Shown here piece after piece: positions 28,521 to 58,666 of a stretch of 64,000 nucleotides of DNA. The stretch covers positions 71,625 to 135,624 of the forward strand of contig NMRA01000353.1 of the NCBI GenBank assembly GCA_002633005.1, given 5' to 3'. Position numbers and translations under genes: made by a program. The stretch is from Phoronis australis. Lineage: Eukaryota; Animalia; Phoronida. Positions within the stretch are counted from its first letter, which is position 1, and the number at the start of each line of letters is the position of its first letter. The notes beneath the pieces were generated by a model. It did not search any database. It worked only from the letters and a program-made list of their open reading frames with translations, and was not told where the DNA came from.

Positions 28521-31500
28521 TCATAGTGTCAAAGCGTACAACTCATCCAGATTTGCCCTATTCTCAGCATTCACCTGAAACATAACACGCCAAGTACATT
28601 GTATGAGGTTAGCTATCACAACACTGGATGGTCACATCATGTTACTGGACTACACCAAGGACCCTGCACTTTGTGAGTCTACACAATGCATATTTGCCAA
28701 CATGACAGTCACTTTGGTATCAAACTTCCCATGAACAGCAGCCAATGCCTTGCAATTACAACAAAAGCACTGAAACCAATGGGCAATTTCCTCCAGTACA
28801 ACCAAATAGGCAGAAAACAAGTGTATGATCTTGGCTTATTTTCAAACCTAGAACTGCACTTCATCAATAGTAGTTGCTTACATGTCAAATCATGAAGTTC
28901 ACTAAACGAGACTATCTAATTGGACCTACGTAGTTCTTGAGGATATGCATTAAACAAGAACAGATGCGCAAGTTGCTTCCATTTAAAGTTAAATCCCTTG
29001 AAACGTTAGCAGTATCTCGTACCAGGAAATGACAACCGATATGTTGCATTTTAATGCGTTTTCAAATGGGATAAAAGGAATTGTTCAAGTCATCAGCAAG
29101 TTGCTTATTAATGATGTGATTGGAACAACTTGTTTTATCCAAATTGGCACTGATGTGTGTAAATGAGTGGACATTTGTGTCTGTAGAGTTGCAATACATG
29201 TTCGGTGGCCGCTGGTGTGGAGTAGTGCTGTTATCAGAAATCACTTGAATAAACAGTGACATAATCAGCTAGCAAAAATGTTTTTTTAGACCAGCATCCA
29301 GCCTCTATTAGCATTTAGTTTCTGAAGAACAAGTCTGAAATCTGTTTCTTTCTCAATCAATGAAGAATGTGAATCGCTCATGACATCATGGACCTGTGTT
29401 TAGGGCGAATCCACTAAAAATACAGGATTAAAGTACATGTAACATGAGAATATCGAAGAATTAAGTGGAGTTTCTGAAATCTGTGTTAGTTCATCGCCGG
29501 GCCTAAAGATAGTGTTTTACAGGGCTCAAGACAGTTGATAAAGATGTGTCGATTGAAAGAATGTGGGCCAGGGTTGACTGTAATCTAAAAACTGACAAAC
29601 AAACAATTTCACTCCCATATTGAAAATTTTTTCCAGCAATCAAATGTGCTACTTTCACAACTCGTACATTTTTTACCCTCCTCAATTTTTAGGCCAGTCC
29701 TTCCCATATGTTTATTCCTGTTTTTAGCCAGCCACCCTTTCCATCCAAAGTCCGTCATTTCCATTGAATTGCACGACCAAGCACGATTGTCAAGGATCAC
29801 ATAAAATTCAACGAATTCTATGAAAATACACACACATGCAGAAAAATGGAACTTCAATGTTATGGAACAAAAAAGATTTACATCATGTGTTACCATACCT
29901 CAAAACATCTGGACATGAAATCCTCAAACTCGGAGGAATATGCTGGAGGTATAGATCTGTTCTGTACCTGCAAACAGGAATTAAGAAACATCGAAAATAT
30001 TTAGTTCCACAAGGCAGTCATTGCTTCTTTTAAAAATGTATATAAACACGCAAGTTAATCAAAGAAACATTAGATTTAGATTACTTACAGCTACAAAATT
30101 GACTTCAAATTGTTCCCTGTTTGTCACTGATTGAGTAGGCATCAATTCTGCCACACTAGATATCCTGAGCATACCAGACTGCATTGATTGACCTCATTAC
30201 CAGAACAATTGATAGCAACCTGAACACTGAGGTATAGATATTATTGGATGTTGGTCTAAGCCCATTTTCATTTTGGCAGATCCCTGGTGCACCGCGACAC
30301 TTGGAACTTGATTGAGTAGGGCTGGGTAGTGACAACTACCGAGGAATCCTCTCTGTCTCAAATTCGTCAATGTGATCATTAACTTAACATATTGTAAATT
30401 GCATTTAGTTTTCACAACAAACATTCAAGTTGGCTTCTAATTAATACTTTTTGAAGTTTAAAACTTAACAAATGTTTATAAATAACACAGTAAGCAGGGC
30501 TTCCCTCCAGTGATCACTGAATTGACCATGAGACAGCACAGGCAGTCAGTCTCACAGTGTGGTTTCTTGAGTTAGGGTTAGTCTCCATTTGAATGAATGT
30601 GGATATGGAATTCGCCGTCCAAGATGGGTCTCTTTAAAAAGTTGTTTGCATGTCCTTCCAACAGTTGCGACACCTGATTTGTCAATCATAACCATGTCAC
30701 CTTCACGGAATTTCTGCGTTGTTCGGTTGTTGATAGTTGCGTTTTGCAGACGATAAAATGTAATGCGTATGGATTTCTACTTTGCACTACTTTGTGATTC
30801 GTCCATGTACATGTAGTATCAAAAAACTCAGTGTTATTAACCAGTTGTGTTGTAACACATTCCACGTACTATGCTTTATACACTGTTCTACAAAATACTT
30901 TTAGGAATTGTTTTCAAAATTTTCCACTTTTGCATGAGGGCTATCGAAAATAGGGCGATGTGATGAAAAAAGTTACATGAAATGAAAACGAAACGATAAT
31001 TTAGAAAACTGTAACAGATTTTTGAAATCTTATCTTGAACACACATTTCATGGACTTTGCTCATGTTATTGTTTCCATTGCTTGATCACGTGATTAGATA
31101 CATGGGAGATTGGTGTCAAGTCAAAAATCAAGTACTACGAAAATTTCTGCTTTCAGAAAATATATACTTCTGCCATTCCAAGTTAAATTTTATCGTTTTC
31201 TGGATATTTAGCTAAATACGCAAACCTGTCAATCAATAACGTCCTACATGACCTTAAATTGTAGCAAGAATTCAGTTCTTCCTAAACCTAGAAACTCATG
31301 AACAATTTGAGATCAATTCTATAACGATAAGTGATCTAAATCAAAATTTAACCTGTGTATCTCAAGTCGGGTTTGTAGCCCTTCAAAAGAAAACTTGCAC
31401 TTATTATTGTTGCAACATGAAAATGTGAGAAATAACAACTATCCAGCACAAAATGAACAAGAAATAACTATCCAGCACAAAACGCCAACTATTGTTTCAC

Positions 31501-34500
31501 TTGCAGCTAGATGAATATGACCTTTAAGTAAACTGAATTCTTCAGCATGCATTTGTCTCTAAAAGTGTATCAGCCATTTGCAAGATTCTTGGAAAATGCA
31601 TGTCACCGAGCCACAGTGTGCGATACATTTACAGAAATACACGGTAGAGATGGAGAGTTGTGACAAATGACACAGCTACATACCATTTCCCTGGTGTATT
31701 CAGGTGGGCAGTGTCTCAGATCATGGTGTACTCTGTGCTTGTTCACCAGTTCATAAGCAATACAACCCAGTCCCCACATGTCAGACATCAAACATGGGCC
31801 ATCGCTGAAAAGCTACAAATGAACAGAAAAATAAAATCCACCATATAAAAAAAATTGCAGGCAGTCTGGTACATGCTGCACAGACCACTCAGGTAGGCTC
31901 ATTGAACTGATCACCTGGAACCATTTTTATGTTTTATCAGTAAGCTTAGCTAGAGACTTGACTCAAGGGTGGAACTCGAACCCACAATCTTAAGTAAAGG
32001 AATCGGACACTTGTCCATTAGGCCACACTGACTCCTCTGTAAAATTCAATCAACGCACTTTAAAATTACTTCAAGTTCTCCCACACGAAGGAGAAGCAGC
32101 CACGTGCACCTAACTAGGGTGAATATTTTGCTTTTTCTTTTGCCACGAAAACTACTTTTAGATATTCAGCTCACTATTAACATGTGAATTTTCAATAAAA
32201 TCAAAGACAAAAGAAATGGGATTTACAGCTTACATGAGAAGCAAATAATGACTAAGAAACAATCTCCCAAACTAATCCACAATTAATTCAGGTAAAGAGA
32301 GAAAATCTACCTCTGGAGGTATGATTACAGCTGGTATTACAGAAAAGTAAATGTCCTCTATTACTTCTGGGTCTGTTATGGCCTTTTCAACATGAACAGC
32401 TGCAGAAAAGTTACTCAGCTTCACAACGAAGTCTGGTTTGGGTGTTGAATCACCAAAGTTGATGAGAATATTGGCACCTATTAAAAACATATAACTTAGT
32501 GCCAAAAGTAAAGAAATTAGAAACCTGCTGGCTGAAACTAGTTTGACCACAAGTGTGGTTTCAATGACATCTAGTAACTTATCAGATGGTGCATTTGATT
32601 GAATGCCTTAAGTAACAGTTAAACTCCTAGTATGCAGCCCCATTTCGTAGGTCAAATTTAAACTAAAACTGCAACATTTTTCTTGGAATATCCGATTGTA
32701 ATAACTATTATTAAACTTCACTTCGTCCCTAAACCTGAGAAAATTTTGAGTGCTAACTAGTCTGATAAAAATGGAAACAAGTGTTTCACCCAATAAAAAC
32801 TGATGTCAATGTAATGGAGGCAATCTGGTTGTACAAAACTGTACTGAAAACACTGTTCTTCCTCAGTAGAACTTCTAACATATGCTGACATAAACAGTAA
32901 GAAAGCCAACAAATCATGTGAAACATGCAAAAGATAATCCGAAAAACAAAAAGAAACTGCATGAAGCTTCTGGATATTGAAATGGAACTGTTACATTACA
33001 ATGCAATGCATTCACAATAAGAATCAGGTTAGCTCTGTAACCATGAATCTGGAAAGCAATAAATGAGATACAATGGAACAAATTGGAGATTAAGAGCATC
33101 CATGTCTTACTCATGAACCTGTTTGAGTTGACTGACTGTTATGAGCTTTGGTTTAATGCACATCAAGAGTTTGGTCAAAATGTTACATACAAGTTGTAAC
33201 TTTGCTAAAATACAAGCAACATTACCATGTAACTACTAAATTGAGGATACAAAAATGTTTATGCATGCTAAGTTGACCCCGGTAATATTTACATGTCCAT
33301 AAAAGATATACAATCTTCTTGCTGTCTTGGTGAAGGTATGTCAATGCATTGATGAACTGGCGCAAACAGCATCCTATTTGAGGAGCAGTTAAATCTGAAA
33401 CATACTCTTCCAACGAGCCACCTAAAACAGTGCACAGAACAATCCTCACTAAACAATTTTACACACAAGTGTGGCATTAAAAATGCCAAAATATAAGTAA
33501 CAAGTATACCATATTAAAACATCCAATTTAAGAAACAAGTACAACATTAAAACCTAAAGAAACAAGTGTAGCCCATCCAATTTAAGAAGCAATTACACTA
33601 AAACATTACAATTTGTGAGCAATAAACTAACAGCAGTTCTTTAATGTAAAACGGTTTGTCATTATCAGCACAATTAAAATTTTCTCATAACTTACAACAT
33701 GAAAACAGACGACACAGTTGGACTTTAAGCATAAATTGGACAAACACTACTCATGATAGTAAAATAATAGACTTCCCATGGGCACCTCAAGTAAAAAATT
33801 GCTATCTTTGTTTCTCAATTGTTATCCTGGCATAATGTCCAGAAACCTTTAGAAGAGGCATGGCAGATTTCCCTATATACAGGGTTGAGGCTGAAAACAC
33901 GTCTTAGTGGAGTGTCCAGTATATGAAGAACTTAGGAGAAAGTTTGGTATTTGTCGTAATATTACTAACTTCGACGGTGATCTCTTCATTTATTTGATAA
34001 AGCCTAGCAACGTTTGAAACTTAGCTCGTTTCATCCACCAAGTTTTTATTGTGCATAACTCATTCATTAGTATGTATTTATTGTGCATAACTCATTCATT
34101 AGTATGTTTTTATTGTGCATAGCTCATTCATTAGTATGTATTTATTGTGCATAGCTCATTCATTAGTATGTTTTTATTGTGCATAGCTCATTCATTAGTA
34201 TGTATTAATTGTGCATAGCTCATTCATTAGTATGTTTTTATTGTGCATAGCTCATTCATTAGTATGTATTTATTGTGCATAGCTCATTCATTAGTATGTT
34301 TTTATTGTGCATAGCTCATTCATTAGTATGTATTTATTGTGCATAGCTCATTCATTAGTATGTATTTATTGTGCATAGCTCATTCATTAGTATGTATTTA
34401 TTGTGCATAGCTCATTCATTAGTATGTATTTATTGTGCATAGCTCATTCATTAGTATGTTTTTATTGTGCATAGCTCATTCATTAGTATGTATTAATTGT

Positions 34501-35710
34501 GCATAGCTCATTCATTAGTATGTATTTATTGTGCATAGCTCATTCATTAGTATGTATTTATTGTGCATAGCTCATTCATTAGTATGTATTAATTGTGCAT
34601 AGCTCATTCATTAGTATGTATTAATTGTGCATAGCTCATTCATTAGTATGCATTATGCTAACCACTTTGTTAATTACACGCTTGTATTTGTTAATTTTAT
34701 AATTGTATATAGGCTGGAGGCCTAAGTACTCACAGATAAATTGTTTTATAGTAATGATGTTTGGAGAAGACTAAACAAATGACACTCATGCAGATGGTGT
34801 TATATAAAGTCTACATGAAAACCTCATTGCTAATGATTTAACCTACTTCTCTTGTGACATCTGATTAGTATACTTGCCTGGTTCAAATGGCAGACAGACA
34901 TAGACATGCTAATGATTTAACCTACTTCTCTTGTGACATCTCATTAGTATACTTGCCTGCTTCAAATGGCAGACAGACATAGACATGCTTTATACATTCC
35001 ACTGTCCAAAACAACTGGATTATATTTGGACAACTAGACGAGCTTACATGGGTCAGCACATGAGTAAGCATGTTAGTGTCCTGGCTGACAATCTGCAATG
35101 AGATACGTCACAGAGAATCATATACAGTATAAGTTACTACAGTATGCAATGTGCTAACAAGATTCCATAAGACTATTGGAGCAATCTCAAAAGTGATATC
35201 AGGTCATGTGGACCAAGGGAGAGTGATGTTGCGCGAGATCCATGATCTGACATGACATGCCCGAGGGTTAATCCCCATGTACAAATAAATTCCCACACTG
35301 CCTCTGAGGGTTAACTCGCAAGATTAGTGTCCAGTAGGCTTGTTTACAACTTACAAGCAGCAATGCATTCTGCTCTTTTCCAAATCTTACTCATGCAATT
35401 CAAATTGCTTACATAAATGCAACTCCCTGGTCACACTACAGTTTGCGTAGTAATATTCACTTTTAAATGCCTACACTTGCTGTTAACACTCACCTATTGA
35501 CTGAGTTTTTCAAAGTAAAGGTCCTGGGGATTCTATAGACGAATACGGCACATATTACACTTTTACACCATTTGCACAAACCTTCTTAAGAACACGGTAA
35601 TGTGACTGATTCTGAACCAGAACCGTAGAAAAATGTCCAAAAGACCCCAAATGACAAATGAAGTCGCAGTCTAAAGCAGCTTCCAAATTTCCTGGAGATG
35701 AGTCATGAAG
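28521..35710 (-). CDS. Protein kinase fold lacking catalytic aspartates (7 exons)
   Basis: LGSFGHF/VLKK, CPNIIQL, FEAGGSL, ALTYLH...IVYLLWTCANILI, VKLSNFS, PPE, SDMWGLGCIAYEL, EDFMSRCFEVNAENR. Confidence 0.88.
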
Positions 35711-38700
35711 CTGGAAAATAAATATCAAGAAAATAATAATAAAAAACATTGTGAGTTTTGTTTAGTTGGTGATGCAGCAGATATGTTCACAAAGCCTAAA
35801 TCCCCTATTGGTCATGCAATGAACTAGCTTAATCTGTAAGATATACATCCACACATGCACTACATTCACACATACAAACATGCACTGCATCCATCCACAC
35901 ATGCACTACATCCACACATACACACATGCACTACATCCACACATACACACATGCCCTACATCCACACATACACACATGCCCTACATCCACACATACACAC
36001 ATGCACTACATCCACACATACAAACATNTGCCCTATATCCATCCACACATGCACTACATCCACACATACACACATGCCCTACATCCACACATACACACAT
36101 GCACTACATTCACACATACACACATGCACTACATCCTCACATACACACATGCACTACATCGTCATACACATATGCTCTACATCTACACACACACATGCAC
36201 TACATCCATCACTTGTCACTGCAGAGTTGAAAGTTATTTGGCCAGAGAAAACATCATCGCACAGTCTACACCGAGAATTTTTAAAGGTATTCTCAGGTAA
36301 AAACTTTTGACAGTTAAATTCATATTGTGAAAATTTAATGAAACCTTGAATATTTGGAATGGTGCATCTTATTTTAGCAGAATAGTTTGCAATTTAATAA
36401 GTCAAGAGCAAAAAAAAGAGCAACGTGGAGCATTGAAATGCACCCACAATTGCACCGTAAATGGTTTGTTTCTAGTGGTGCTTATGTGTATCATATAAAA
36501 TGGCAAGATGCACAGAATATATTGAACCCTTCCAAAAATGGGAAGATACAATTCTCTCTCAAAACTAGTAGCCAAATTTCATGAAAATCTGTCAAAAAAT
36601 TCCAAAGATACAAAGGCAAACGCAGAAAAAATACAGCCATTAGGAACCTCAGCAGTAGTCGAATATGTCCACCTGTTGTCAAGTTAATAGTAATACATTG
36701 CAAAATTTCAAAAACATCTTGCAAGGGGTTTAGGAGATACAGGTGTAGATGCGAACAAATGTCACTAGGGTGCATCACAGCAGTTCATAATAAAAGCACA
36801 GCTCCAGAAATTGCTTTCACATTATATCCAGGTTCACATTCACTCCCTTGCACACATTTAGATAGTCAATCGTTTATTAATTAGACCCTGATCAGAGGCA
36901 TAGGAGACACCTTTGAGTAATATTCGAAATAGCTGGACTTGTTTGAAAATCCTCGTCAGTCATTCTCTTGTCAGCGGGAACACATCTGCCAATTTTCATA
37001 ATGATCCTCTGCACACGGTTTGGGAGATACAGAAGCAGATCACCAAAAATAGACTCAAATAATTAAAATGGCCGCTAGTTTGTAGTATACATTGGATCCA
37101 TCGAAAAAGGAAAGGTGCTATCCTCTTCATAAAAGAAATGTTTACCCAATTTCATGAAAAAGCATCAAAGAACTTTGAAGTTAGAGAGAAAAGCATAAAA
37201 AAAAACTGTCGCTAGAGAGCACAGCTGTAGTTGGATTGGTCTGAAACTGGCTGTCACACTTCGCCATCTCCAAAGGAACATGTAGACTGCTAAATTTCAG
37301 AACGATCTTCCAAAGAGTACAGGAGATATAGCTGTGGATGCCAGAGTAGTTGAACACGTCCGAAAATCAACATCATCATGATGATCTTTCTTTGGTGGAT
37401 GGAGAGGGTGATGTTGAAAACATACTCAAACATTTTTAAAATGGCCATGTAGTAGCTCAGAGTACCTTCCAAAAATGAGATGTCATCGTCTCCTAAGAAA
37501 CCTATTCGCAAAATTTCATGGTAATAAAAACGGCCACTATATGTTGAATCTATCCGAAAATGGGAACTTGTTGACTCTTTAACAGAAACCTATTTATTAA
37601 ATTTCATAAAAAAACTGCCATAGAGTGACAAAGATACAGAAGACAACAAAAATGCCACTGGGGGGGGGGGCACAGCGGTAGTCGGATCCAGCCAAATGTC
37701 GTCGTTATCTGCTGTCAACTTCATAAATACACTAGCCAAATTTAACAAAGTTCCTGCAGAGAGTTTGGGAAATACAGTCATAGACACAAAAATGCCACTA
37801 GGAGGCGCCACAATGGTCTGAGACGTCCGAAAATCATCATCAACTGTCCTCTTCACAGTAGAAACAACAATGCCAATTTCAAAAATCATCCTTAGAGTAA
37901 TTTGGTTGATAGAGGGGTAGATGCCAAAAACATACTACAAAACAGTAAATATGAGCACTAGATGGCCCAAAATTCGTCAAATCTATGTTTCCTTAATAGA
38001 ATGCTATTTACCACATTTCATACAAGAGCAATGCAGAGCATTGAAATGCGCCCACGAATGCACCGAAAACGATGTGCTTCTAGGGGTGTTATTTGTATCA
38101 TAAAAATGGCCACTAAACGGCGCAAAATGCGTCGAATCCATCCGAAAACGGGAACATGCCATCATTTTTTAATAGAAAGCTATTCATTAAATTTCATAAA
38201 AATCTGAAAAGGAGCCTCACAGAAACAGAAGAAAATGAAAAAAATTAAATTGCCACTAGGGGGCACAGCGTTCGTCAGATCCGTCTCAAAGTCGTCGTTA
38301 TCCGTTGTCAACTTCATATGAATACACTTGCTAAACTTAATAAACATCCTGCAGAGCGTTTAGGAGATACAGCCATGGGCGCAAAGAAACAAAACTGCCA
38401 CTAAGAGGGGCCACAGTAGTAATCGGAAAATCGTCAATCGTCCTCTTCATAGTAAGAATATACATGCCTATTTTCACAATCATCCTTTGAGTGGTTTGAT
38501 TGATAGAGGAGCAGATGCAAAACACCTCGAGTCCAGCTGAAAATGGGAGGATAGTGTAACCTCTCTAATATATGCCTAACTGCCAAATTTCATGACAACA
38601 GCAACGCGGAGCATTGAAATGCACTGATGAATGCACTGCAAAGGTTGTGCTTCTAGTGTTATTTATTTGTTTCGTAAAAATAGCCACTAGATGGCGCAAA

Positions 38701-41700: not shown

Positions 41701-44700
41701 GGCAAACATAAAAAACTAAAACTGCCACTAGGGGGCACAGCAGTACTCACATCGGTCTGAAATTCGTTATCATCTGTCGGTAGCTACATAGGAACACACC
41801 TGTCACATTTCAATAAAATCCTGCAAGGAGTTTAGGAAATGCAGCTGCAGATGGTGGATGCCCAGACAGAGAAGATGACAAAATGGCCACTAGGTGGCGC
41901 AAATACCTTAAATCCATCCAAAAATGAAAAAAAAACAGCATCATCTCACTAATAGATGCCTCTCTGCCACATTTTATGAAATTCGGTCGAGGATGTTTTA
42001 ACATACAGACGAGGTAAAGATAAAAAAAACTAAAATTGCCAATGAAGGGCACACTGTTAGTCGGATCCGTCCGAAAGTTTGCTAATGCTTTGCCTTCCAT
42101 GAAAGGAACACATGCGCAAAACTTCATGAACATACATTAAAGGGTTTTGGTTGAAATCTGAGAAACACGTGAATGCATAAAAATCATGGATAGGCTAAAA
42201 TTCAGAAAAATACGGTTGAATCACAAAATACCACAGTAGTGTGTTACAACACTCCATATCCATACTTATATGAAAGTTTGGACAAAATCCTCTGCAAAAT
42301 GTAGGTGAGCATTTTCGTAGATGGGTGGGTGAAAATAAAAAAATGGGACAAAATTCTGGAAAATACAGTTGAATCGCCAAATACGCATGACATATGCTAC
42401 ATTGCAACATACTATTTTCAAAGATTAGTCTTTGAAATGTAGGAATTGAGAACAGAAGAGCATTTCTGTGAATAGAAGGGTGAAAAGCAGGACAAATTCA
42501 GAAAAATACACCCAAATTGCAAAACGCCAGATTTATGCACTACGGCACTTTGGAATTCTATTTTACAAAAGTTTGGTGAAAATCCAGAGAGACCTGAAGA
42601 AGTTGCACATAGAATAGTATTACTCTCTGTACATGGACACACGAATGGAATGATGACTACCATCAATGTATCACCTTTGCTGCGGGATAAAAAAGATGTA
42701 CGATAAGTGATGATAAAAATAATGATCAAGAAACAGAGGTGGGTACAGTGGGCACAAAACCAATAAAATTGAAGCAAAAATCCATCAACAAAAAAGAAGT
42801 CATCAAAAAATATTTAAAAAATTAAAAATGTTAAGTTGAAGTGAAAAACTGAGATAATCCCAGCAGGACTTGTCGAGATCTATCTTTATACTAAGTCTCA
42901 AAAAGATCTGTCAAAAGATGCCGGAACTATGGTCAGTAAAGAGAGACGTCAATGAATGACAGATAAAATAACATTTTGTGTCTAATTTGGGCCAAAAACG
43001 ATAAACTCCTAGTTAACGAGTCGTGATTTGTGAAATTTTTTTGTTGGTTGGGTAAGATTATGGGACCTGTATGAACAAACAAAAAAACAAACATTCTTAT
43101 GACAGTGTGTCATACTTGGCAAAAATTGCTTGACATAATACGATGTAGTGAATAGAAAATATTCATGTCAATTACCTGAGTAAAGCGAGCGTCACTTTCT
43201 TTAATTTCTTGAACAGTCAATTTCCACAATAGCTGTCCTGATCTTTGGAGTGTCGCACTCAACTGTAATAGTGGGCTGTAAAATGAAACATTCTATGACT
43301 GAAACTTAGTTTTGCAACAACCAGGCCTACACTATTAACATGATTGTGATTGCATCAGTGTTTCAACGGTAAGTTGCTGTTAGCATTGATTTGCATCAAC
43401 CAGAAAGTTTCAGTGCTTGTTTTATGACAAGACAGGAGCTCACATGCACAGATGCTTAAATGTCAACATGTCTAACAATTTCAACTCGTTGTATCTTCAT
43501 AGCAGTCTTTCAGCATCTTAGTTCAAATTTAAAAACTGAACCACTGCAACTGCACTTAATGATATATGACTCGATTTAGCAAATTAATATAAAATGTTCA
43601 GTAAATTGGAATTCTCAATAACTATATCATTAGTTTTATTTTACAAACATTTCAAATACAGACTTAACTGTACAAATAGCATTTATTCTTTGAACAGGAA
43701 CATTGATACCTCGGAGTAGCTGCAATTTGTAAACAGCACTCAAGTGGTAATTAATGGCCCATAACATGGTGGAGCTGAAGTGGTAATTAATAGCCAACAG
43801 ATGGAGATCAAAAGAACAGGGAGCAGCACAAACAGAATTTGTCTATAAATTAGCATGTTCTCTCTTATCTTTATTAAAAACAGTTAACACAAAGATCAAT
43901 TACATCTAGGCAGAAAAAGAAATGAGTGCCAAAAATAAAATTGCCACCGAGGAACAACAAGGAAATTCGATGTCAGTCAAGTAACACACATGCCAAAGTT
44001 AATGACATGCCTTCATCACCCACATATGCAGTGTCCCAAAATGTATAAACACTTCAAAATTACACTTCAAATGACAATGTTTGCAGACTAATGGACAACA
44101 TTAACCATTCAAATTCATAAACATTGGTCTAAAAAGAAATTAATCCACGAATTAAACCTAAATATTTAAGTGCATTGTTGATTAACTTGAAATTGTCTTA
44201 TAAACTGTCTTTGCATTTCCTGGATGTTTCTGAATTTCCTATAGCATTGTGCGATAACCTTGGATTACCAAATCCGAACCAGCAAGATGTGCACACAGTA
44301 GGTACGGGTGCAGAGTCTAACTCATGGCAACTAAATTTGAACTTCCGCCATTATAATTAAGTGGGCAGCCCTTTGTGTGGTTTCATTATTAAATGGGCAG
44401 CCTATATGTTTGGTTGAATAATTAAGTGGGCAGCCTAGTGTGAAACGAAATACATACAAATCTGTCAATGCTTTACAGAAAGGAACACGGCATCTAACTT
44501 CACTACATTCCCTGTTCTGATGATCTTGGATGTATTTGATGGCTTTTTCACAAGAGTGACAATCACCCTTGTAATCAATGTCAGCGCACTTCAGACATCT
44601 CTTATACTGAAAGAGAAACTATTTTAAATTTATAATTTAAATTCAACCACAATGTGAATGAAAATTGATACTTCATTTTGCTCAATTTTTCATCAAAACA

Positions 44701-47700: not shown

Positions 47701-50700
47701 CACTCTTGCTAAATTTCATAAAGATCCTGCAAACGGTTAAGGGGATACAGCTATGGGTGCAAAAAAAACTGTCACTAGGGGGCTCTTCAGTAGTTTAAGT
47801 CGTCGGAAAATCATCACAAGCCGTCCTCTTCATTGTAAGATATGCATGCCAATTTTCACAATCATCCTTAGAGCGGTTTGGTTGATAGAGGGGTGGACGC
47901 CAACAAACATACTCAAAAACAATAAAATTGGCCACTTGGTGATGTAAACTGTATCGAATCCATCCAGAAATGGGAGGATAGCATTATCCAACTAATAGAA
48001 TATACCAAATTTTATGAAAATATGTGGAGGACCCTTGAAGATACAGAGGTAAATGTAAAAGCCTAAAACTGCCACTAAGGGCACACCGGTTATCGCATCC
48101 GTCCAAAAGTTTGCACATGGCGTCCTATCCATGAAAGAAACATAATGTGAAAAATTTCATGAACACATGTCAAACGGTTTTGGAGATAGAGCAGCGGACG
48201 CCGGAAGGACNNNNNNNNNNNNNNNNNNNNNNNNNNNNNNNNNNNNNNNNNNNNNNNNNNNNNNNNNNNNNNNNNNNNNNNNNNNNNNNNNNNNNNNNNN
48301 NNNNNNNNNNNNNNNNNNNNNNNNNNNNNNNNNNNNNNNNNNNNNNNNNNNNNNNNNNNNNNNNNNNNNNNNNNNNNNNNNNNNNNNNNNNNNNNNNNNN
48401 NNNNNNNNNNNNNNNNNNNNNNNNNNNNNNNNNNNNNNNNNNNNNNNNNNNNNNNNNNNNNNNNNNNNNNNNNNNNNNNNNNNNNNNNNNNNNNNNNNNN
48501 NNNNNNNNNNNNNNNNNNNNNNNNNNNNNNNNNNNNNNNNNNNNNNNNNNNNNNNNNNNNNNNNNNNNNNNNNNNNNNNNNNNNNNNNNNNNNNNNNNNN
48601 NNNNNNNNNNNNNNNNNNNNNNNNNNNNNNNNNNNNNNNNNNNNNNNNNNNNNNNNNNNNNNNNNNNNNNNNNNNNNNNNNNNNNNNNNNNNNNNNNNNN
48701 NNNNNNNNNNNNNNNNNNNNNNNNNNNNACAGGGATGATATGCACCTTATGTATATGTGGGGGAGACAGGGATGATATTCACCTTATGTATATGTGGGGG
48801 AGACAGGGATGATATGCATCGTATGTATATGTGGGGGAGACAGGGATGATATTCACCTTATGTATATGTGGGGGAGACAGGGATGATATGCATCCTATGT
48901 ATATGTGGGGGGAAACAGGGATGATATGCACCCTATGTATATGTGGGGGAGACAGGGATGATATGCACCTTATGTATATGTGGGGGAGACAGGGATGATA
49001 TGCACCTTATGTATATGTGCGGGGAGACAGGGATGATATGCATCCTACGTATATGTGGGAGGGATCCATCTGAAACTGAGCAGGACCCATCACTTTCTTC
49101 AAGGAAAGGTTGATGCCACAGTAGTTGGACTTGTATCAAAGTCACTGTCAGCCTCGTGAGGAATAAAAACTATCATGCAAATCCATAAAAAATAGGGAGA
49201 TTCTAGAGGAAAAAGCAATCTGCTAAATTTCATAATGGCACCAGGTGATGCAGAATATGTTGAAAACCTATTTGCCAGGTTTCGTGACAATTGTAAACTG
49301 AAAGAACTTGGAATTCATAGCAGCAAATGGAAAAAGCCAAAATTATCACTAGGGAGCACAGTTCATCATTTCAAAAATTTTCATGTTCATACTAGTCTAT
49401 TAGAAACATATTTGCAAAATTTCACAAAGATCTGCAATGGGTTTCCGAGACACTGCTGATGATGCTGAATGGAAGCTGAATGCTGGACAGAGATGGCAGT
49501 ATTATGCACTCATTTTACATGGGTGCATAACAAAAACTCACCAAAATTTAAAGGGTAAATTAATCCTATTTTTGGCAGTCAAAAGCCACATATAAAAGTC
49601 ATGCATCCTAATAAAAAACAATCAATGGCATTCTTGAAATTATGATGTTTAAAAGTTTGAAAAGCTGACTAAAGTTACTTTAAGAAATGTTAAGTAACTA
49701 TTTTATCATCAAAATATCTACATTTTGTGCAAGTACATAGCAGGACAAAGTCTGTAAATGGTAAGTAAGATCAAAACAAACCTCTTGACACCATTCCTCA
49801 TGACAGGAATTCTCATAGTTACACACAACTGCTTCCTAGAAAAATAAAATTCCAGTGGAAACATTCCAACCATAAAATTAAAAGCAATCAAAATTAATTC
49901 TGACTAGATACACTGGCAGTACTGAAGAGTTTATGTTCTCTATTAAATTGCCAGACTATTCACATTTATGACTCCTTTTTATTTTATGTTGCACTTTCTG
50001 TCTTAGTTAGACTTCATACTTGCTTCATGAAGAATGTCCAATAATTTGATGCAAAACTTAATTTCAAACAAATTCTAGTTTTATCGCCATCGACCAAACT
50101 TCAACCAAGATCAGAATACCTTAGACAACCATCTCATATTTACTGAGTTGAAAACCAGCCTCCCGTTCAGTAACACTAGGACCTAGCTAAAAAGCAAAAT
50201 ACACAAATGATGAAGTTCATGATAAATCAACGTTTCGTCTATTCGTTAGACATCATCAGGATATTTACATAGGACAACAAGTGCCAACATACATCACTGC
50301 AGATAACACTAAATGAATTGGCTTGGTGATTGTTGCTATATCGGACTCACACAGAGACGCCTCTGTGACAGGCTGAAGAACATCACACCTCAGAGAAAAG
50401 CAACATATATAGGCATTGTGTTAGCAACAATCACCAAGCCAATTCAGTTAGTGTTATCTGCAGTGAAACTAATAAGGAATTACTGTACATTAAAGAGTCA
50501 CTGGCTATTCAGAACCAGCATGCTACTGATTCTCTGAACAACATGCAGAGCTCAGTGACCCTGCAACTATGGTGATGACCAGCTACTGACTACTCTGTAT
50601 CTCTCACTTCACTTCATGGATGTCACCTGAGATGTATGTTGGCACTTGTTGTCCTATGTAAATATCCTGATGATGTCTAACGAATAGACCAAACGTTGAT

Positions 50701-53700
50701 TTATCATGAACTTCTTCATTTGTGCGGCGATCGTCCGGTTTTTAAAATACACAAATACAGCATTTAGGTTGCTTGTGTGTTACTTCTGCTTTTCCAGGTT
50801 CACCTACAACTACAATGGAAATGCTTATTGGTTTGCCACCCCTGCATATTTACCTCAGTGGTGAAGCTGTGCTTGCAGCTTACCGTATGAGATGTAATGG
50901 GCAGTGGAGTAATGCGCGAATCTCTGATACTGTTGCTCATAAGAGCCATGTTAATGTATGTAACAGGTTAATGTCAGAACCTGGAACACATTTGACAATG
51001 TCAAGGGATGTTTTATTGACAGACACAATTTCTGTATAGAAATTGGAGGTGGTCACGAAATCATTGATTACAATGACCAACAGTCCGTTTGTTACACTGA
51101 TGGCTCTAAACTTGACAACGGACAGTCAGGATCAGGAATTTATTTTCCAGGCCTTGCAGGTGATGACAAAGAAAGCTGGATCTCACTGGGTAACACCGTT
51201 ACAATCTTTCAGGCTGAAATTGTTGCCATTCACCAGGCTGCCCAACTGACAAGGGAGCATGAAGCAGTCCTTGATAACAAGGAACTCTTCATACTCTCAG
51301 ATAGCCAAGCAGCTATTAAAGCTTTAACTAAGCCTAAGATCAACTCCCATTGTGTCCTGGCCTGTGTAAATGAACTTAACCACCTATCAGCTGGTAGAAC
51401 GGTTCATGTGAACTGGGTTAAAGCCCATGTTGGCATTGACGGTAACGAAGCTGCTGACGAACTTGCAAAAGAAGGAGCAAGTGCACACTGTTTTGTACCA
51501 AAACCTTGCATACTAGTTGCCTATAGGTACTGTAGAGCAAAGGTAAAACACTGGGTGTGTAAACTGTCCGTGGATCCATGGAGAAAGCTGTCTGCCTGCA
51601 GATAAACAAAACAACTTTTTCCAAGTCGCATTGAACCAAAAGGTTCAAAGAAACTGTTACGTTTAGATAGGTTTGTTATAAGGCAGCTGATCAAGGTTAT
51701 TACTCGACACTGCAACCTAGCTCGGCACCGTAACATCACAGGCCACATGGCATGGTGATTGTGTCCCAACTGTGGCGTGTCTTTCTGAAACAAACAGGCA
51801 GATTGGAAGATTTCACCCATGAGGAATCTGGTGATGTCATATCCCCATGAGTCACAATCAGTTGACTGACTAGTGTAATAGCCCAGGCCTTGTGGCCTAA
51901 ACACGCCTGATGTACCGCAAAAGGCATCAGGGCCACCTGCACCTTTTTTTAGCTAAAAAGCAATACTTCGCGAGATTACGTGAGATATTGCTGTGTATTT
52001 TAAATGAGAACACGTGACTTTGGCTAGATTTTAGGTATGTCCTAGCGTAGGTCCTAGCCTTATTGAACGCACGCCAGGTATCCTCAAATTCCACTTTTTC
52101 CAAAAGGGAATACAATCCTGCACTAAATTTTTGCCTTAATCAAAGAAAATATTAACTTGTTGAATAAGACCATCTTACCAGTACCAAGCTTTTCTCAACC
52201 TTATTTAGACATCATTTATAGGTTTGGAAAGAACTGGACGTTCCTTATTGCTCGAAGAAACGCTTGGTATTTTTAATGACTTGTTGTGACAAGACAACTT
52301 GAGTCAGATCTCCAGTAGTAACGACCTGTGAGTTCTTCAAAAGCGCAAATATCACCTCTGATCCCAGGAAGGAAGCAGGTTCACAGGAACACATAATTAT
52401 CACTAAAACTTATCCTGCAAGGGTTTAGGAGATACAGCAGCAGACGCCAAGAGATGACAGCAATATGCACCCACATATGTACAATTATGTATGCGGGTGC
52501 ATACAAATGACTGTCACAATGGCAAAATCATACAGAATGGTTTAACCATCTTACTAACTTTCCAGTTAATTTCCCTTCGTTCTCAGTTAAGAAAGGGAAC
52601 CTAGTCTGATGATAATTTGGCTTACGCTCAGCCATAAAGATTGGGAATTACGGGTCATCTTGTTTGAATACTTTTAGCATGTACTGCAAACACTAGTCAA
52701 AATTAAGGAACAACACTATACCTCCTCTTCTTCCTCGTCTGCAAAAGAAAAAGGCACAACATCAATGTCTGACAGACAACACGACTGTGTACATATTAAT
52801 TATAAACAATCCAGTGGAACTACACACAAGCACTTAATACCACAAATCTATAACTTCTAATCAACAAGAAGCAAGTTTGAGACAGCTTAACCCCGCAAAA
52901 TACTGTCTATGATCCCCAGCCCAAGAATACAACACTAATATCTTGTGGACCTCAAACCATAAACAAGCCAGCACTCGACCACGGACGAATAACGTAGTGT
53001 TAGAAATTCGGTCCTGCACTTCGGTCACTTGCATTGGAAATTGTCCATCCAAGGTAAAGATGCCTGTCTGTGGTTTTGGTTCTGTGGTAAAGATTTTGAA
53101 TTTTTGAGTTGTGTGGTATGGGTCCCGTGTGTTAAGAGCGGGTTTCCACTCTCCAGCATATGCAAAAATGCTCTGCCACCCGGGTTTAACAGTCTATGCA
53201 TGTACAAGCTTGAATCTGGCAACTGCCACACGTACACATTTGAACCACTACAGCTGCAAAATCATGTAGATATTGGTTTAAAAACACAAATTTTTTTCAT
53301 TCTGTAATTATACAGAATTGGTTTAACACACAACATTTTTCATTGTTCACAGTCTTTATTCCGTTACGTTTGTACCGTCGAAACAAAACTCTACTCTCAA
53401 TAGAACATAGAAAAAGTAACTGACCTAGCAACATAATTAAAAGACACATGATATTTCGAAACATACTTGTTTCATTCTCAAGTGAAGATAAAATGACGCA
53501 GTAATGCCACCACAGAGCTAAGCTGATGACACACACAGTGAAACACGGCAGGTGTGAAATACTGCAAAGAATGACTAATGAAGGGGGTAACAGGAAAAGG
53601 CATGCAAACAAGTGTAACGTGCGGCGCGACACTATTTGCTGCCCATTCAAAACAGGCTTCTCAAAAGCGATTAAAAGGGACTCTTAATACTTTCAATTGC

Positions 53701-56700: not shown

Positions 56701-58123
56701 AATGGAAGTGCCTGAACAAAAAGCAACAGCGCAAGAAATCAACTAGTCATTAAGCGCAAGTCGGACATTCTGTCCACATCCACGTGGTCAAAAACTTATT
56801 TTTTGAACTCTTGATTTGCCTGATGACCTTTTACATGTGTTTTTGCTTCATTATTTTTGCAGCCGACCAACCACCCCTAGTGCCTAATAGTAGTATGGTC
56901 CGATTGTTGAGCATGTGCTTTGAACAAATTCTGGGAGGTCGGTTTTGGCTCTTCAACACAGAAAGAAATAAACAATGTATATAAAATGTTAGCACATAGT
57001 TCAAAGCTCAAAGTATTAAGAAGACCTGTCAATCATCAGCAAGGGTTGGTTGCCAAAGTATTCAGCAGGGAGCAAATCTTATATAAAGTCATGTGCTTCT
57101 CTTAGAAATACATGGTGAACTAGCAGAGTCTTGCTTTTCCCTCAAGAAACTTGGTCTACTGAACGCACACCTACCTGTAGAAATACCTTAGTTCTAAGGG
57201 ATAATGAGCAGCGACCAAAGTATGTAAAAACCCAATCACGCTCGGGATCACGGCACCACTGTATCGTGTGCGCTACTCCACTACCGCCCTTCAAAGTCCG
57301 TTACTTCAATCCGCTGACACATATTGTAACTGACATGCCAGAAGTCTGACGTCAGTGCAGCTCCGTCAGGGTGGAATTGGTCCTCCGTGCAGTAAGCACC
57401 CACTCCCGACTTTTCAAAAATTTCGATTTTAGCCGCCCATGCTCGGCTTACCGCCTACCCATTTTTTTAGATTCCCAATTTAAGCGCCCTGGGTGGTAAC
57501 CCGGACGAGTACGGCAAATGATTAGATTTGAGAGGTATTGTTTAAAATGGAATTGGGCTTGGAAATCAGAAATAGTTACCTGAAATCTCTAAATTTTCTT
57601 CATATTCACCTTCATAGTGATGCCCAGTACTTATGAAATCTATCTCATGTCTGGCAGGCTCGTGGAAAATCATGTCTGAGAAATAAAAATCGAACGTGAT
57701 CAGTTACAACCAGGACTCCAAAACCAAACACACACGAACAATATAGAGTTCAGTAATTAACAAGTATTTACCAAGGGGATCTTGATCTTCTTCATTCACG
57801 GTTGCCTCTTCATGACTAATGGTCGCAGTCCTTGGTGTCTCTGGAGTCCTGACCTGGATGACATGATCAGTAGGCAAGCTCTCATTCAAATCATTGATTG
57901 ATAGGCTACTCATCAAGTCATCAGTTGAGCATTCATTTTCACCAGCTGTTGATGGATCTTCAGAACTAGTTAAGACCCCAGTCATATCCGTCAGCCTCAA
58001 CTCTCTAGAATCTGTTTTTTGTCCACCAAGGTTCATGTTGTTATACAGAGGATCTGGCACATTCTCATTACCACAGGCGCCACCTGGTGGTTGGGCGTCA
58101 TCGCATATGTTGGCTGTATCCAT
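28521..58123 (-). CDS. TAZ-like zinc finger plus pseudokinase protein (~526 aa)
   Basis: Phase-compatible exons (5' to 3'): 58123-57772, 57675-57580, 52738-52722, 49835-49782, 44606-44458, 43275-43176, 35710-35582, 35092-34957 (GC donor), 33421-33293, 32477-32311, 31812-31684, 29967-29899, 28574-28521 (TGA). Total 1581 nt. Extra exons in the N gap cannot be excluded. Confidence 0.8.
31960..32034 (-). mobile_element. tRNA-derived SINE head or tRNA pseudogene
   Basis: Minus strand A box TGGCCTAATGG and B box GGTTCGAGTTC; no convincing cloverleaf. Confidence 0.5.
34045..34650. repeat. 32-bp minisatellite x~19
   Basis: TTTATTGTGCATAGCTCATTCATTAGTATGTA, highly homogeneous. Confidence 0.95.
34828..34989. 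repeat. 79-bp tandem duplication spanning the GC splice donor of the minus-strand gene
   Basis: CCTACTTCTCTTGTGACATC at 34842 and 34921. Confidence 0.9.
35844..36208. repeat. 25-bp CA-rich minisatellite x~14
   Basis: TCCACACATACACACATGCACTACA; explains the His/Thr-rich ORFs. Confidence 0.95.
36402..42150 (-). mobile_element. Cluster of nested or tandem HINE-like copies
   Basis: Reverse complements of the 15062-16581 element: several 3' ends (ACAAGAGCAA...GAAATGCGCCC at ~36402, 38021, 40663) and 5' ends (ATGTGGGYGCATAA at ~40290, 41560), dozens of CCACTAG motifs. Confidence 0.75.
44458..49835 (-). CDS. TAZ-like zinc finger (2 exons)
   Basis: CNYENSCHEEWCQEYKRCLKCADIDYKGDCHSCEKAIKYIQDHQNRECSEVRCRVPFC compared with CBP/p300 TAZ2 CRNANCSLPSCQKMKR...GGCPICKQ...HAKHCQENKCPVPFC. 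Confidence 0.6.
44730..48210 (-). mobile_element. Second cluster of HINE-like copies
   Basis: Same family; 3' ends near 45676 and 46974, 5' end near 46925; runs into the N gap. Confidence 0.75.
48211..48728. other. Assembly gap (518 N)
   Basis: Run of N. Confidence 1.
48729..49059. repeat. 37-bp minisatellite x~9 next to the gap
   Basis: ACAGGGATGATATGCACCTTATGTATATGTGGGGGAG. Confidence 0.95.
49060..49530 (-). mobile_element. Degenerate HINE-like fragment
   Basis: GCCACAGTAG and CACTAGGG motifs, AAATTTCA motifs, 5' end ATGGGTGCATAA at ~49519-49530. Confidence 0.55.
50202..50743 (+). mobile_element. Penelope-like element fragment with inverted pseudo-LTR
   Basis: 94-bp inverted repeats (50202-50295 / 50631-50724, 2 mismatches) around a GIY-YIG remnant YIGLTQRRLCDRLK; 13-bp direct repeat AAAATACACAAAT at 50196 and 50744. 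Confidence 0.75.
50224..50265 (-). ncRNA. Minimal type I hammerhead ribozyme core
   Basis: CUGAUGA-U-GUCUA-ACGAA-UAGAC-GAAAC-GUU; stem II GUCUA/UAGAC, palindromic AACGUU stem III. Confidence 0.65.
50744..51950 (+). mobile_element. Degenerate non-LTR retrotransposon 3' part with RNase H (LOA/Lian-Aa1-like)
   Basis: CLCVTSAFPGSPT..MEMLIGLPPLH; YTDGSK..GSGIY; TIFQAEIVAI; ILSDSQAAIKAL; WVKAHVGIDGNEAADELAKEG; ITRHCNLARH; frameshifts and stops. Confidence 0.88.
52412..52503 (-). mobile_element. Short HINE-like 5' fragment
   Basis: CCTGCAAGGGTTTAGGAGATACAG...GAGATGACAGCAATATGCACCCACAT...GGGTGCATA. Confidence 0.6.
53300..53960 (-). mobile_element. Penelope-like element remnant (GIY-YIG endonuclease)
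   Basis: KQCYIGQTVCSLSCRLFMHLQNGVIQDH...HERKITRQEIVEN; left boundary approximate. Confidence 0.7.
54027..55171 (+). mobile_element. Degenerate hAT-like DNA transposon remnant
   Basis: VRGHSGVAR, IHCTSQKLLN and FWNRLL-type transposase remnants; right end GGGCCCC...TTAATCTGGCACTG resembles hAT termini. Left end uncertain. Confidence 0.45.
55419..55593. repeat. 29-bp minisatellite x6
   Basis: CAACATGTAACAGACTTAAGAGTGCAGCA, identical units. Confidence 0.95.
56207..57514. mobile_element. Non-autonomous TIR transposon, Tc1/mariner-pogo-like
   Basis: 25-bp imperfect TIRs CCATACTCGTCTGGGTTAC / GTAACCCGGACGAGTACGG; subterminal direct repeat CATGCTCGGCTTACCGCC near both ends; TA TSD not preserved. 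Confidence 0.65.
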
Positions 58124-58666
58124 GGTTCTAAAACAACTCCGCAACCCAAACCATAACCTGAAAATTATCATATATGACGAGTTAAGTATGTTAGGGAACA
58201 TCAAGCAGTAAACTGACTTACCTATGATAAATCTTAAATTTCTGTCAACTTTAAGATAAAAGTTAAATTCGTTTTGTAATAAGTCCATTTCAGGAAAGAT
58301 ATCTTATGTTAGACTAAAGTCAAAAATGAAATAAGTCTGTTTTTTGGAACTGGCCTCATGATCAGAACACGTCAAATAAATTGACCTTAAGCATTAAGCA
58401 GGCTTTCTTCCATAGGGCAGAGAGTGTTGCTGCAAAGTCAAAATCCTCCTATGCTCAACCTGAGCATTAGGAGATACTGACACCACAAAGCCAGAATAAT
58501 ATCTGAAATTGGCTTGAAGAGGATGGGAGGTGGCGAACAAGATGTAATAATGTCATAGTTATCTTTCGCTCTGCCGACCACAATTTTATGAACCCCCACG
58601 CAACCTGTTGAAAACCAAGCTATGCAAGTGCAAAGTACCAACCAGGAGACGATTGTGAGAACTAAT

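What the first reader, a model, noticed from the sequence alone, without database searches (positions are those of the whole stretch)
28521..58123. TAZ-like zinc finger fused to a pseudokinase
Seen: Cys/His spacing resembling TAZ2 (third site H-x4-C-x4-C-RVPF-C; the His ligands of sites 1 and 2 are replaced) upstream of a complete kinase fold. Established: in animals TAZ fingers are essentially known from CBP/p300, where they bind acidic transactivation domains. Inference: an undescribed adaptor or decoy; its own acidic N-terminus (DEEEEE) could occupy the TAZ surface.
Basis: partly seen in the sequence, partly recalled or inferred. Interest (0 to 1): 0.78.

Follow-up and report, generated by a model that had tools for sequence, protein, structure and literature searches.

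The report
TAZ2-like zinc finger dead-kinase fusion
An expressed, spliced animal-type gene joins a worn-down relative of the zinc finger with which the coactivator CBP/p300 grips transcription factors to a kinase domain missing its catalytic residues, so it likely works as a signalling adaptor, in a domain pairing I found no record of.

Summary
The fusion is real. The minus-strand gene has 13 coding exons and 526 codons; exon 57580-57675 was needed to fit the reads. A profile of 85 TAZ2 domains scores the Cys-rich region 32.7 bits, against at most 20.6 in 1000 shuffles that keep Cys/His fixed. A kinase profile aligns residues 313-516; HRD is YLL, DFG is NFS and the helix-C Glu is lost, so the kinase is predicted dead. 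The finger is degenerate: 9 of 12 ligands are canonical, helix 1 is replaced by poly-Glu, and net charge is -3 against +2 to +14 in 85 of 85 TAZ2 domains. That argues against the proposed decoy for acidic activation domains or self-binding of the acidic N-terminus. No homologue, no TAZ-kinase protein and no paper turned up, but only single exons could be queried, and folding was inconclusive. The scan had not found this on other DNA. Verdict: a new domain pairing among pseudokinase adaptors; function and conservation untested.

The parts
57772..58123 (-). Coding exon 1 (aa 1-117): start codon, acidic low-complexity N-terminus
   Evidence: Open frame and ACCATGG start; junction to exon 2 not covered by reads
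57580..57675 (-). Coding exon 2 (aa 118-149): acidic segment with scattered aromatic and aliphatic residues; absent from my first model
   Evidence: AG/GT borders, phase 1-1, frame kept; its 3' end predicts the 21-letter read piece seen at the micro-exon, exon 1 predicts 19
52722..52738 (-). 17-nt micro-exon 3 (aa 150-155, poly-Glu), standing where TAZ2 helix 1 ends
   Evidence: Joint 49834/52721, 6/6/9 reads
49782..49835 (-). Exon 4 (aa 156-173): zinc site 1 (E156 at the His position, C160, C166, C171; spare H167)
   Evidence: Joints on both sides; profile alignment
44458..44606 (-). Exon 5 (aa 174-223): helix 2, site 2 (C180 at the His position, D184 or C177, C189, C192), helix 3, site 3 (H202, C207, C212, C217)
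   Evidence: Best PDB hits p300 TAZ2, E 0.024; 27.2 bits alone on the TAZ2 profile; joints
43176..43275 (-). Exon 6 (aa 223-256): hydrophobic, likely helical linker between finger and kinase
   Evidence: Joints 4/13/10 and 13/13/13 reads; hydrophobic moment up to 0.64
35582..35710 (-). Exon 7 (aa 257-299): kinase strands 1-3, altered Gly-rich loop, strand-3 Lys (K298/K299)
   Evidence: Joints; alignment with 70 kinases
34957..35092 (-). Exon 8 (aa 300-345): helix C without Glu (V311), strands 4-5, hinge; GC donor
   Evidence: Joints
33293..33421 (-). Exon 9 (aa 345-388): helices D/E and catalytic loop with YLL in place of HRD
   Evidence: contig record 4; loose end at 33291 matches exon 10 (12 and 14 reads)
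32311..32477 (-). Exon 10 (aa 388-443): N390 kept, NFS in place of DFG, activation segment ending PPE
   Evidence: X1 contigs cover 32314-32457
31684..31812 (-). Exon 11 (aa 444-486): helix F with D454 and G459 kept
   Evidence: Pfam Pkinase E 0.0052, below cut-off; contig record 1
29899..29967 (-). Exon 12 (aa 487-509): helix H
   Evidence: 68 record letters between exons 11 and 13 in contig record 1 and read depth at 29932
28521..28574 (-). Exon 13 coding part (aa 510-526 and stop): R515 kept; 3' UTR to at least 28452
   Evidence: Contig record 1
58158..58221 (-). Putative 64-nt intron in the 5' UTR; if spliced, an in-frame stop lies upstream of the ATG
   Evidence: GTAAGT donor and pyrimidine-rich acceptor; not read-tested

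Best explanation
This spliced 526-aa protein joins an acidic N-terminus, a TAZ2-like zinc finger and a kinase domain lacking HRD, DFG and the helix-C Glu, and it likely works as a non-catalytic adaptor. Shown: exon structure, in-frame fusion, TAZ2 profile match, loss of the catalytic motifs. Inferred: the kinase keeps its fold (helix-F Asp, the Glu-Arg pair and the strand-3 Lys remain) and serves as a binding platform, perhaps holding ATP without metal. Inferred: the finger still binds two or three zinc ions, using Cys180, Glu156/His167 and Asp184/Cys177 as stand-in ligands, and, having lost helix 1 and its basic rim, is completed by the hydrophobic linker (aa 218-256) and binds partners other than the acidic activation domains that CBP/p300 TAZ2 binds. 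Because the whole protein is acidic, partners are predicted to be basic.
For: Junction reads and contigs of a second study. TAZ2 profile: 32.7 bits against at most 20.6 in 1000 Cys/His-fixed shuffles; 22.4 against 16.9 with the two residues that my search pattern shared with the query masked. The 8-residue spacing from ligand 4 to ligand 5 is found in 85 of 85 TAZ2 domains and here. Kinase profile 22.7 bits over aa 313-516, best shuffle 1.8 (231 of 500 shuffles were reported, the rest not); catalytic columns lost, C-lobe structural columns kept. Net charge: aa 1-155 -33, finger core -3, kinase -14. 4 of the 6 listed coding differences in run X1 are synonymous and the other two conservative. 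Pseudokinase definition, and cation-free ATP binding in STRADalpha and MLKL (PMC4718504, passages).
Against: No homologue was found, so conservation and selection are not shown; the 6 variants are only those listed among many hidden rows. Pfam zf-TAZ did not hit exon 5 alone. The exon-5 model without an alignment gave no TAZ match. The model guided by TAZ2 rows gave CBP TAZ2 as sole Foldseek hit but at E 6.4, and that test is circular. No partner, zinc count or nucleotide binding was tested. The role of the linker is a guess from its hydrophobic moment.
Confidence: 0.55

Rival explanations
1. The finger still works like CBP/p300 TAZ2: it captures acidic activation domains as a decoy, or is shut by the protein's own acidic N-terminus.
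For: Helices 2-3 and site 3 align well with TAZ2. The added exon 2 gives an acidic stretch with aromatic residues and one hydrophobic-x-x-hydrophobic-hydrophobic motif at aa 117-121, as in activation domains (motif recalled). The exon-5 part alone is net +2.
Against: Core net charge -3 against +2 to +14 in 85 of 85 and +1 to +10 in 118 of 118. Only 2 large hydrophobic residues in the 10 positions before ligand 1, against 3 or more in 82 of 82; helix-1 moment 0.11 against a median of 0.49, though the lowest control is 0.08. Canonical binding uses basic side chains around a groove (PMC3534135, passages).
Confidence: 0.15
2. A lineage-restricted duplicate under relaxed selection: both domains are decaying and the protein has little or no function.
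For: No relatives in any search; both domains are highly divergent (about 30% identity to TAZ2; 22.7 bits against at least 183 for the kinases of the profile); modest read depth.
Against: An intact 526-codon frame over 13 exons and 30 kb with clean splicing in two studies; losses fall on catalytic columns while structural ones stay; 4 of 6 listed variants synonymous. Single-exon queries are too short to make the blanks strong.
Confidence: 0.15
3. The kinase is atypically active, or is an enzyme of another kind, and the finger recruits its substrate.
For: Strand-3 Lys and N390 are kept; some kinases lacking canonical residues are active (WNK, CASK; PMC4718504, passages).
Against: Catalytic Asp, catalytic-loop Lys, metal-binding Asp and helix-C Glu are all replaced; EphA10 and EphB6, with comparable losses, are predicted inactive (PMC7586955, passages).
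Confidence: 0.07
4. The Cys-rich region is a different or convergent zinc-binding fold that only resembles TAZ2.
For: The full 12-ligand pattern is not met; Pfam zf-TAZ gave no hit on exon 5; fold searches were inconclusive; introns split the domain here.
Against: Non-ligand residues carry the match (0 of 1000 Cys/His-fixed shuffles reach it); 8 of 9 PDB sequence hits are p300 TAZ2 constructs; recalled RING, PHD, MYND, ZZ and LIM spacings do not fit.
Confidence: 0.08

Closest known systems
TAZ2 (CH3) domain of CBP/p300, Pfam zf-TAZ PF02135; PDB 1F81, 2K8F, 3IO2
   Same: Order and spacing of ligands (site 2 ends C-x2-C, 9 residues to the site-3 His, then C-x4-C-x4-C), helix-2 register, 9 of 12 ligands identical, about 30% identity.
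   Different: His1 is Glu, His5 is Cys, Cys6 is Asp; the site-2 loop is 3 residues shorter; one extra residue in C2-C3 and in H9-C10; helix 1 is replaced by poly-Glu; net negative; no acetyltransferase, bromo, KIX or ZZ domain; fused to a kinase fold.
Scaffold pseudokinases such as STRADalpha, MLKL, TRIB1-3/STK40, EphA10/EphB6
   Same: Kinase fold with HRD, DFG and helix-C motifs lost but helix-F Asp kept (against Table 1 of PMC7586955); non-catalytic binding role inferred.
   Different: No orthology shown to any of them; none is known to me to carry a TAZ finger (recalled; 'TAZ' occurs 0 times in PMC7586955).
TAZ domains outside CBP/p300: plant BTB-TAZ proteins and short stand-alone TAZ2 proteins of corals and a midge
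   Same: TAZ reused as a module without the acetyltransferase (search listing; P0010, P0015, P0090, P0020).
   Different: Those in my sample keep canonical or near-canonical ligands and a positive charge; 0 of 120 listed proteins carry a kinase family.
MEKK1-type (STE11) MAP3 kinases, as a possible parent of the dead kinase
   Same: Introns just after the strand-3 Lys, in the hinge, in the catalytic loop, after the APE motif and in helix G recall MAP3K1 (recalled, no call tested it).
   Different: No SWIM or RING domain; no sequence test against animal kinase families could be run.

Membership tests
TAZ2 zinc finger (PF02135) | Significant profile similarity beyond Cys/His content | tested here: met
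   Own profile of 85 TAZ2 domains: 32.7 bits, 0 of 1000 Cys/His-fixed shuffles reach it; 22.4 with the shared Val-Pro masked, 0 of 1000. True members score 49-126.
TAZ2 zinc finger (PF02135) | Passes Pfam's zf-TAZ gathering score | tested here: inconclusive
   Exon 5 alone gives no hit; the spliced domain could not be scanned against Pfam.
TAZ2 zinc finger (PF02135) | Three HCCC zinc sites (12 ligands) | tested here: not met
   9 of 12 canonical; positions 1, 5 and 6 are Glu, Cys and Asp. Site 3 is complete.
TAZ2 zinc finger (PF02135) | Amphipathic helix 1 ahead of the first His | tested here: not met
   Poly-Glu; the profile match starts at node 29; 2 large hydrophobics against 3 or more in 82 of 82.
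TAZ2 zinc finger (PF02135) | Basic surface around the binding groove | tested here: not met
   Net -3 against positive in 85 of 85 and 118 of 118; a sequence count, not a surface map.
TAZ2 zinc finger (PF02135) | Four-helix TAZ fold | tested here: inconclusive
   Only a 49-aa exon could be folded; pLDDT 68; weak, circular hit to 1F81.
TAZ2 zinc finger (PF02135) | Binds zinc and acidic activation domains | not testable with these tools
   Needs protein work.
Protein kinase fold (PF00069) | Subdomains in order from N-lobe to C-lobe | tested here: met
   Profile of 70 bacterial Hanks-type kinases aligns aa 313-516 at 22.7 bits, best shuffle 1.8; strands 1-3 placed by multiple alignment only. Pfam on exon 11: E 0.0052, below cut-off.
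Active protein kinase | Catalytic Asp (HRD), metal-binding Asp (DFG), helix-C Glu | tested here: not met
   YLL 383-385, NFS 410-412, V311.
Pseudokinase (sequence definition) | Lacks at least one of the VAIK Lys, HRD Asp and DFG Asp | tested here: met
   Two of three lost (definition in PMC4718504).
Pseudokinase (functional) | No phosphotransfer; non-catalytic role | not testable with these tools
   Needs an assay.
MEKK1/STE11 MAP3K lineage | Phylogenetic placement and shared intron positions | not tested
   Recalled resemblance only; no animal kinase set was retrieved.
RING, PHD, MYND, ZZ, LIM fingers | Family ligand spacing | tested here: not met
   Recalled spacing patterns gave no match in aa 151-230.

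The most novel reading that the evidence does not exclude
An animal lineage took the TAZ2 module of CBP/p300, rewired its zinc ligands and charge, and fixed it to a dead MAP3K-like kinase, making a conformational switch that controls the coactivator system directly: the acidic segment docks on real CBP/p300 or on the finger, and partner or nucleotide binding at the pseudokinase releases it. It would be the first TAZ-pseudokinase regulator and would show TAZ to be a mobile signalling module in animals.
Probability: 0.12. Interest if true: 0.8.

Novelty: new variant of a known kind. Interest (0 to 1): 0.5.

Why it matters
TAZ2 is studied almost only as the activation-domain receptor of CBP/p300. 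A natural, expressed version that has swapped three zinc ligands, dropped helix 1, reversed its charge and joined a pseudokinase shows how far the fold can be rewired, and adds a domain pairing to the invertebrate-type pseudokinome that family scans of single exons miss. The weight is limited: one gene, no orthologue, no function, and new domain pairings in lineage-specific pseudokinases are not rare (own knowledge).

Tried and rejected
No whole genome is held, so paralogues and the organism's own CBP could not be searched. Word-based homologue searches with exon 5 and exon 11 gave no candidates. phmmer of exon 5 over 1.84 billion representatives gave 1 hit, a repetitive protein with no zinc finger, rejected. 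A metagenome scan with exon 5 matched 168 stretches, 0 confirmed. ESM Atlas: exon 5 best score 0.81; exon 10 best 0.86, kinase clusters at 0.82; leads only. PDB phmmer: exon 10 none, exon 8 one spurious hit, exon 9 STK10 at E 0.57, exon 11 PDK1 at E 0.028; no family can be named from these. AlphaFold of exon 5 without an alignment: pLDDT 68, pTM 0.39, no TAZ match. With 33 TAZ2 rows: pLDDT 68, pTM 0.46; VIA-align best Z 3.3, no TAZ chain among the 50 rows shown; uninformative for a 49-aa fragment. Kinase motifs within 1.5 kb of TAZ2 loci: 3 of 118 loci had one isolated motif each, none taken as a kinase. The first read lay at 90% identity was swamped by intronic repeats. No RNA holder was listed in the run index itself; the RNA runs came by species label. 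My first 12-exon, 494-aa model was replaced after the read-piece length did not fit. No complex prediction was run, as there is no candidate partner. Earlier scan notes: nothing by sequence, relatives or genome.

Full report
Gene model. Six-frame translation and splice-site reading give a minus-strand gene of 13 coding exons from ATG 58123 to stop 28521: 1581 nt, 526 aa, one frame, all introns GT-AG except one GC-AG (after exon 8). No whole genome is held.

Splicing. Four runs carry the same species label. At 99% identity, stranded reads of X2, X3 and X4 (one study, about a fifth of each run read) bridge 52722>49835 (6/6/9 reads), 49782>44606 (4/6/11), 44458>43275 (4/13/10), 43176>35710 (13/13/13), 35582>35092 (11/0/10) and 34957>33421 (4/8/4); loose ends at 33291 (12 and 14 reads) match exon 10. 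First mates lie on the + strand, as expected for a minus-strand RNA. Contigs of X1 (a second study; its RNA status is a guess) join exons 7-8-9 and exons 11-(12)-13. The chain rests on overlapping junctions, not on one spanning read; exon 1>2 and 10>11 were not shown directly. The micro-exon piece was 21 letters long, which exon 1 cannot give (19) but a 96-nt exon at 57580-57675 can; I added it, replacing my first 494-aa model.

The zinc finger. Exon 5 alone has p300 TAZ2 constructs as 8 of its 9 PDB hits (best E 0.024) but no Pfam hit. To test the whole domain I collected TAZ2-type loci from metagenomes with a spacing pattern (118 loci), kept the 97 with three complete sites in one frame (21 dropped), and built a profile from the 85 distinct ones. 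Residues 132-247 score 32.7 bits; 0 of 1000 shuffles with Cys and His fixed reach this (best 20.6). My pattern shared a Val-Pro with the query, so I masked it: 22.4 bits against a best of 16.9. Only this exon scores above 9 bits among 1617 six-frame segments. True members score 49-126 bits, so it is a distant member. Ligand 4 to ligand 5 is 8 residues in 85 of 85 domains, which puts C180 at the second His; E156 stands at the first His and D184 at the sixth ligand; a MAFFT alignment instead pairs C177 and C180 as the first two ligands of site 2. Nine of 12 ligands are canonical, site 3 is complete, and C177, H167 and H190 are spare. Recalled RING, PHD, MYND, ZZ and LIM spacings do not fit.

What the finger has lost. 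The profile match begins after helix 1; the ten residues before ligand 1 hold 2 large hydrophobics against 3 or more in 82 of 82 controls, and their hydrophobic moment is 0.11 against a median of 0.49 (lowest control 0.08). The core is net -3; all 85 profile members (+2 to +14) and all 118 canonical cores among 126 domains of a second set (+1 to +10) are positive. TAZ2 needs zinc to fold and binds acidic activation domains in a hydrophobic groove ringed by basic residues (PMC3534135, passages only). So the canonical receptor function is doubtful. The linker after site 3 has segments with hydrophobic moments of 0.46-0.64 and could stand in for helix 1; this is inference.

Folding. Only the 49-aa exon 5 could be modelled. 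Without an alignment: pLDDT 68, pTM 0.39, no TAZ match. With 33 TAZ2 rows: three helices at the expected places, pLDDT 68, pTM 0.46, sole Foldseek hit CBP TAZ2 1F81 at E 6.4, TM 0.52, which is circular; VIA-align best Z 3.3 to unrelated helices. The fold test is inconclusive.

The kinase. A profile of 70 bacterial Hanks-type kinases (128 loci fetched, 58 dropped as cut short or lacking DFG) aligns aa 313-516 at 22.7 bits; the best shuffle scores 1.8 (231 of 500 reported). In the joint alignment, HRD is YLL (383-385), the catalytic-loop Lys is Thr, DFG is NFS (410-412) and the helix-C Glu is V311, while two Gly-loop glycines, the strand-3 Lys, N390, D454, G459 and R515 are kept. This meets the sequence definition of a pseudokinase (PMC4718504, passages; Table 1 of PMC7586955, passages). 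Selective loss of catalytic columns, an intact frame and 4 synonymous among 6 listed X1 variants (further variants were not listed) point to a maintained, non-catalytic protein. The parent family is not determined; intron positions recall MEKK1-type kinases (recalled, untested).

Relatives and precedent. Single-exon queries found no homologue, and the protein itself is not in the word-indexed collection. These blanks are weak because the queries were 43-55 aa. A TAZ2 profile that included exon 5 returned 172 proteins among 195 candidates; of the 120 listed, 119 carry PF02135 and none a kinase family (52 not seen); the kinase part matches none of them. Several are short TAZ2-only proteins of corals and a midge, so TAZ outside full CBP is not unique to this gene. 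Paper searches for a TAZ-kinase (listings only) gave no description. One plant receptor-kinase preprint names zf-TAZ among ectodomains used for comparison (10.1101/2023.12.21.572927, one passage); whether it implies a TAZ-kinase in plants is unclear, and its supplements, which I did not see, may bear on this. Subscription journals and InterPro architecture tables were not searchable. An unchecked scan note (e1-9080661) reports a CBP TAZ1 fragment captured by a repeat element in another animal genome: a possible precedent for shuffling of CBP pieces, not tested here.

Verdict. Real, expressed and spliced; a degenerate TAZ2-like finger fused to a predicted dead kinase; most likely an adaptor with partners other than acidic activation domains (0.55). 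It is not a full member of the TAZ family by ligands, helix 1 or charge, but is most likely derived from it. New variant of a known kind; interest 0.5.

Noticed in passing
window 11320-26319, + strand: The convergent neighbour seems to combine ERCC4 nuclease-domain exons (11320-11589, E 3.4e-4; 12023-12265, E 5.6e-9), a 343-aa frame with a ubiquitin-interaction motif (21686-22714), a zinc knuckle (24750-25025) and an Arg/Gly-rich tail. An XPF/MUS81-type protein with such parts may deserve its own look; that these exons form one gene is untested.
   Followed up: partly
window 50964-51602, + strand (intron 3): A 213-aa RNase H frame (Pfam E 7e-17), likely a retroelement relic.
   Followed up: partly
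window 34828-34989: A 79-bp tandem duplication copies the 3' end of exon 8 together with its GC donor; reads show only the first donor in use. The intron is of the GC-AG type.
   Followed up: partly
window 36300-42200, 45500-48100 and 15234-16187: A dispersed repeat family of about 440-450 bp period fills these introns and draws many RNA reads from other loci, nearly all in one orientation.
   Followed up: no
window about 48200-48730: A run of 520 N lies in intron 4; reads splice straight across it, so it hides no constitutive exon.
   Followed up: yes
proteins P0002, P0005, P0010, P0015, P0020, P0090: Short stand-alone or tandem TAZ2 proteins in corals, a midge and unnamed assemblies; some may be CBP fragments or truncated duplicates.
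   Followed up: no
window 57175-57454, - strand (intron 2): A G+C-richer stretch with a 57-aa open frame (no Pfam hit) and a strong donor at 57175; possibly an alternative non-coding exon.
   Followed up: no
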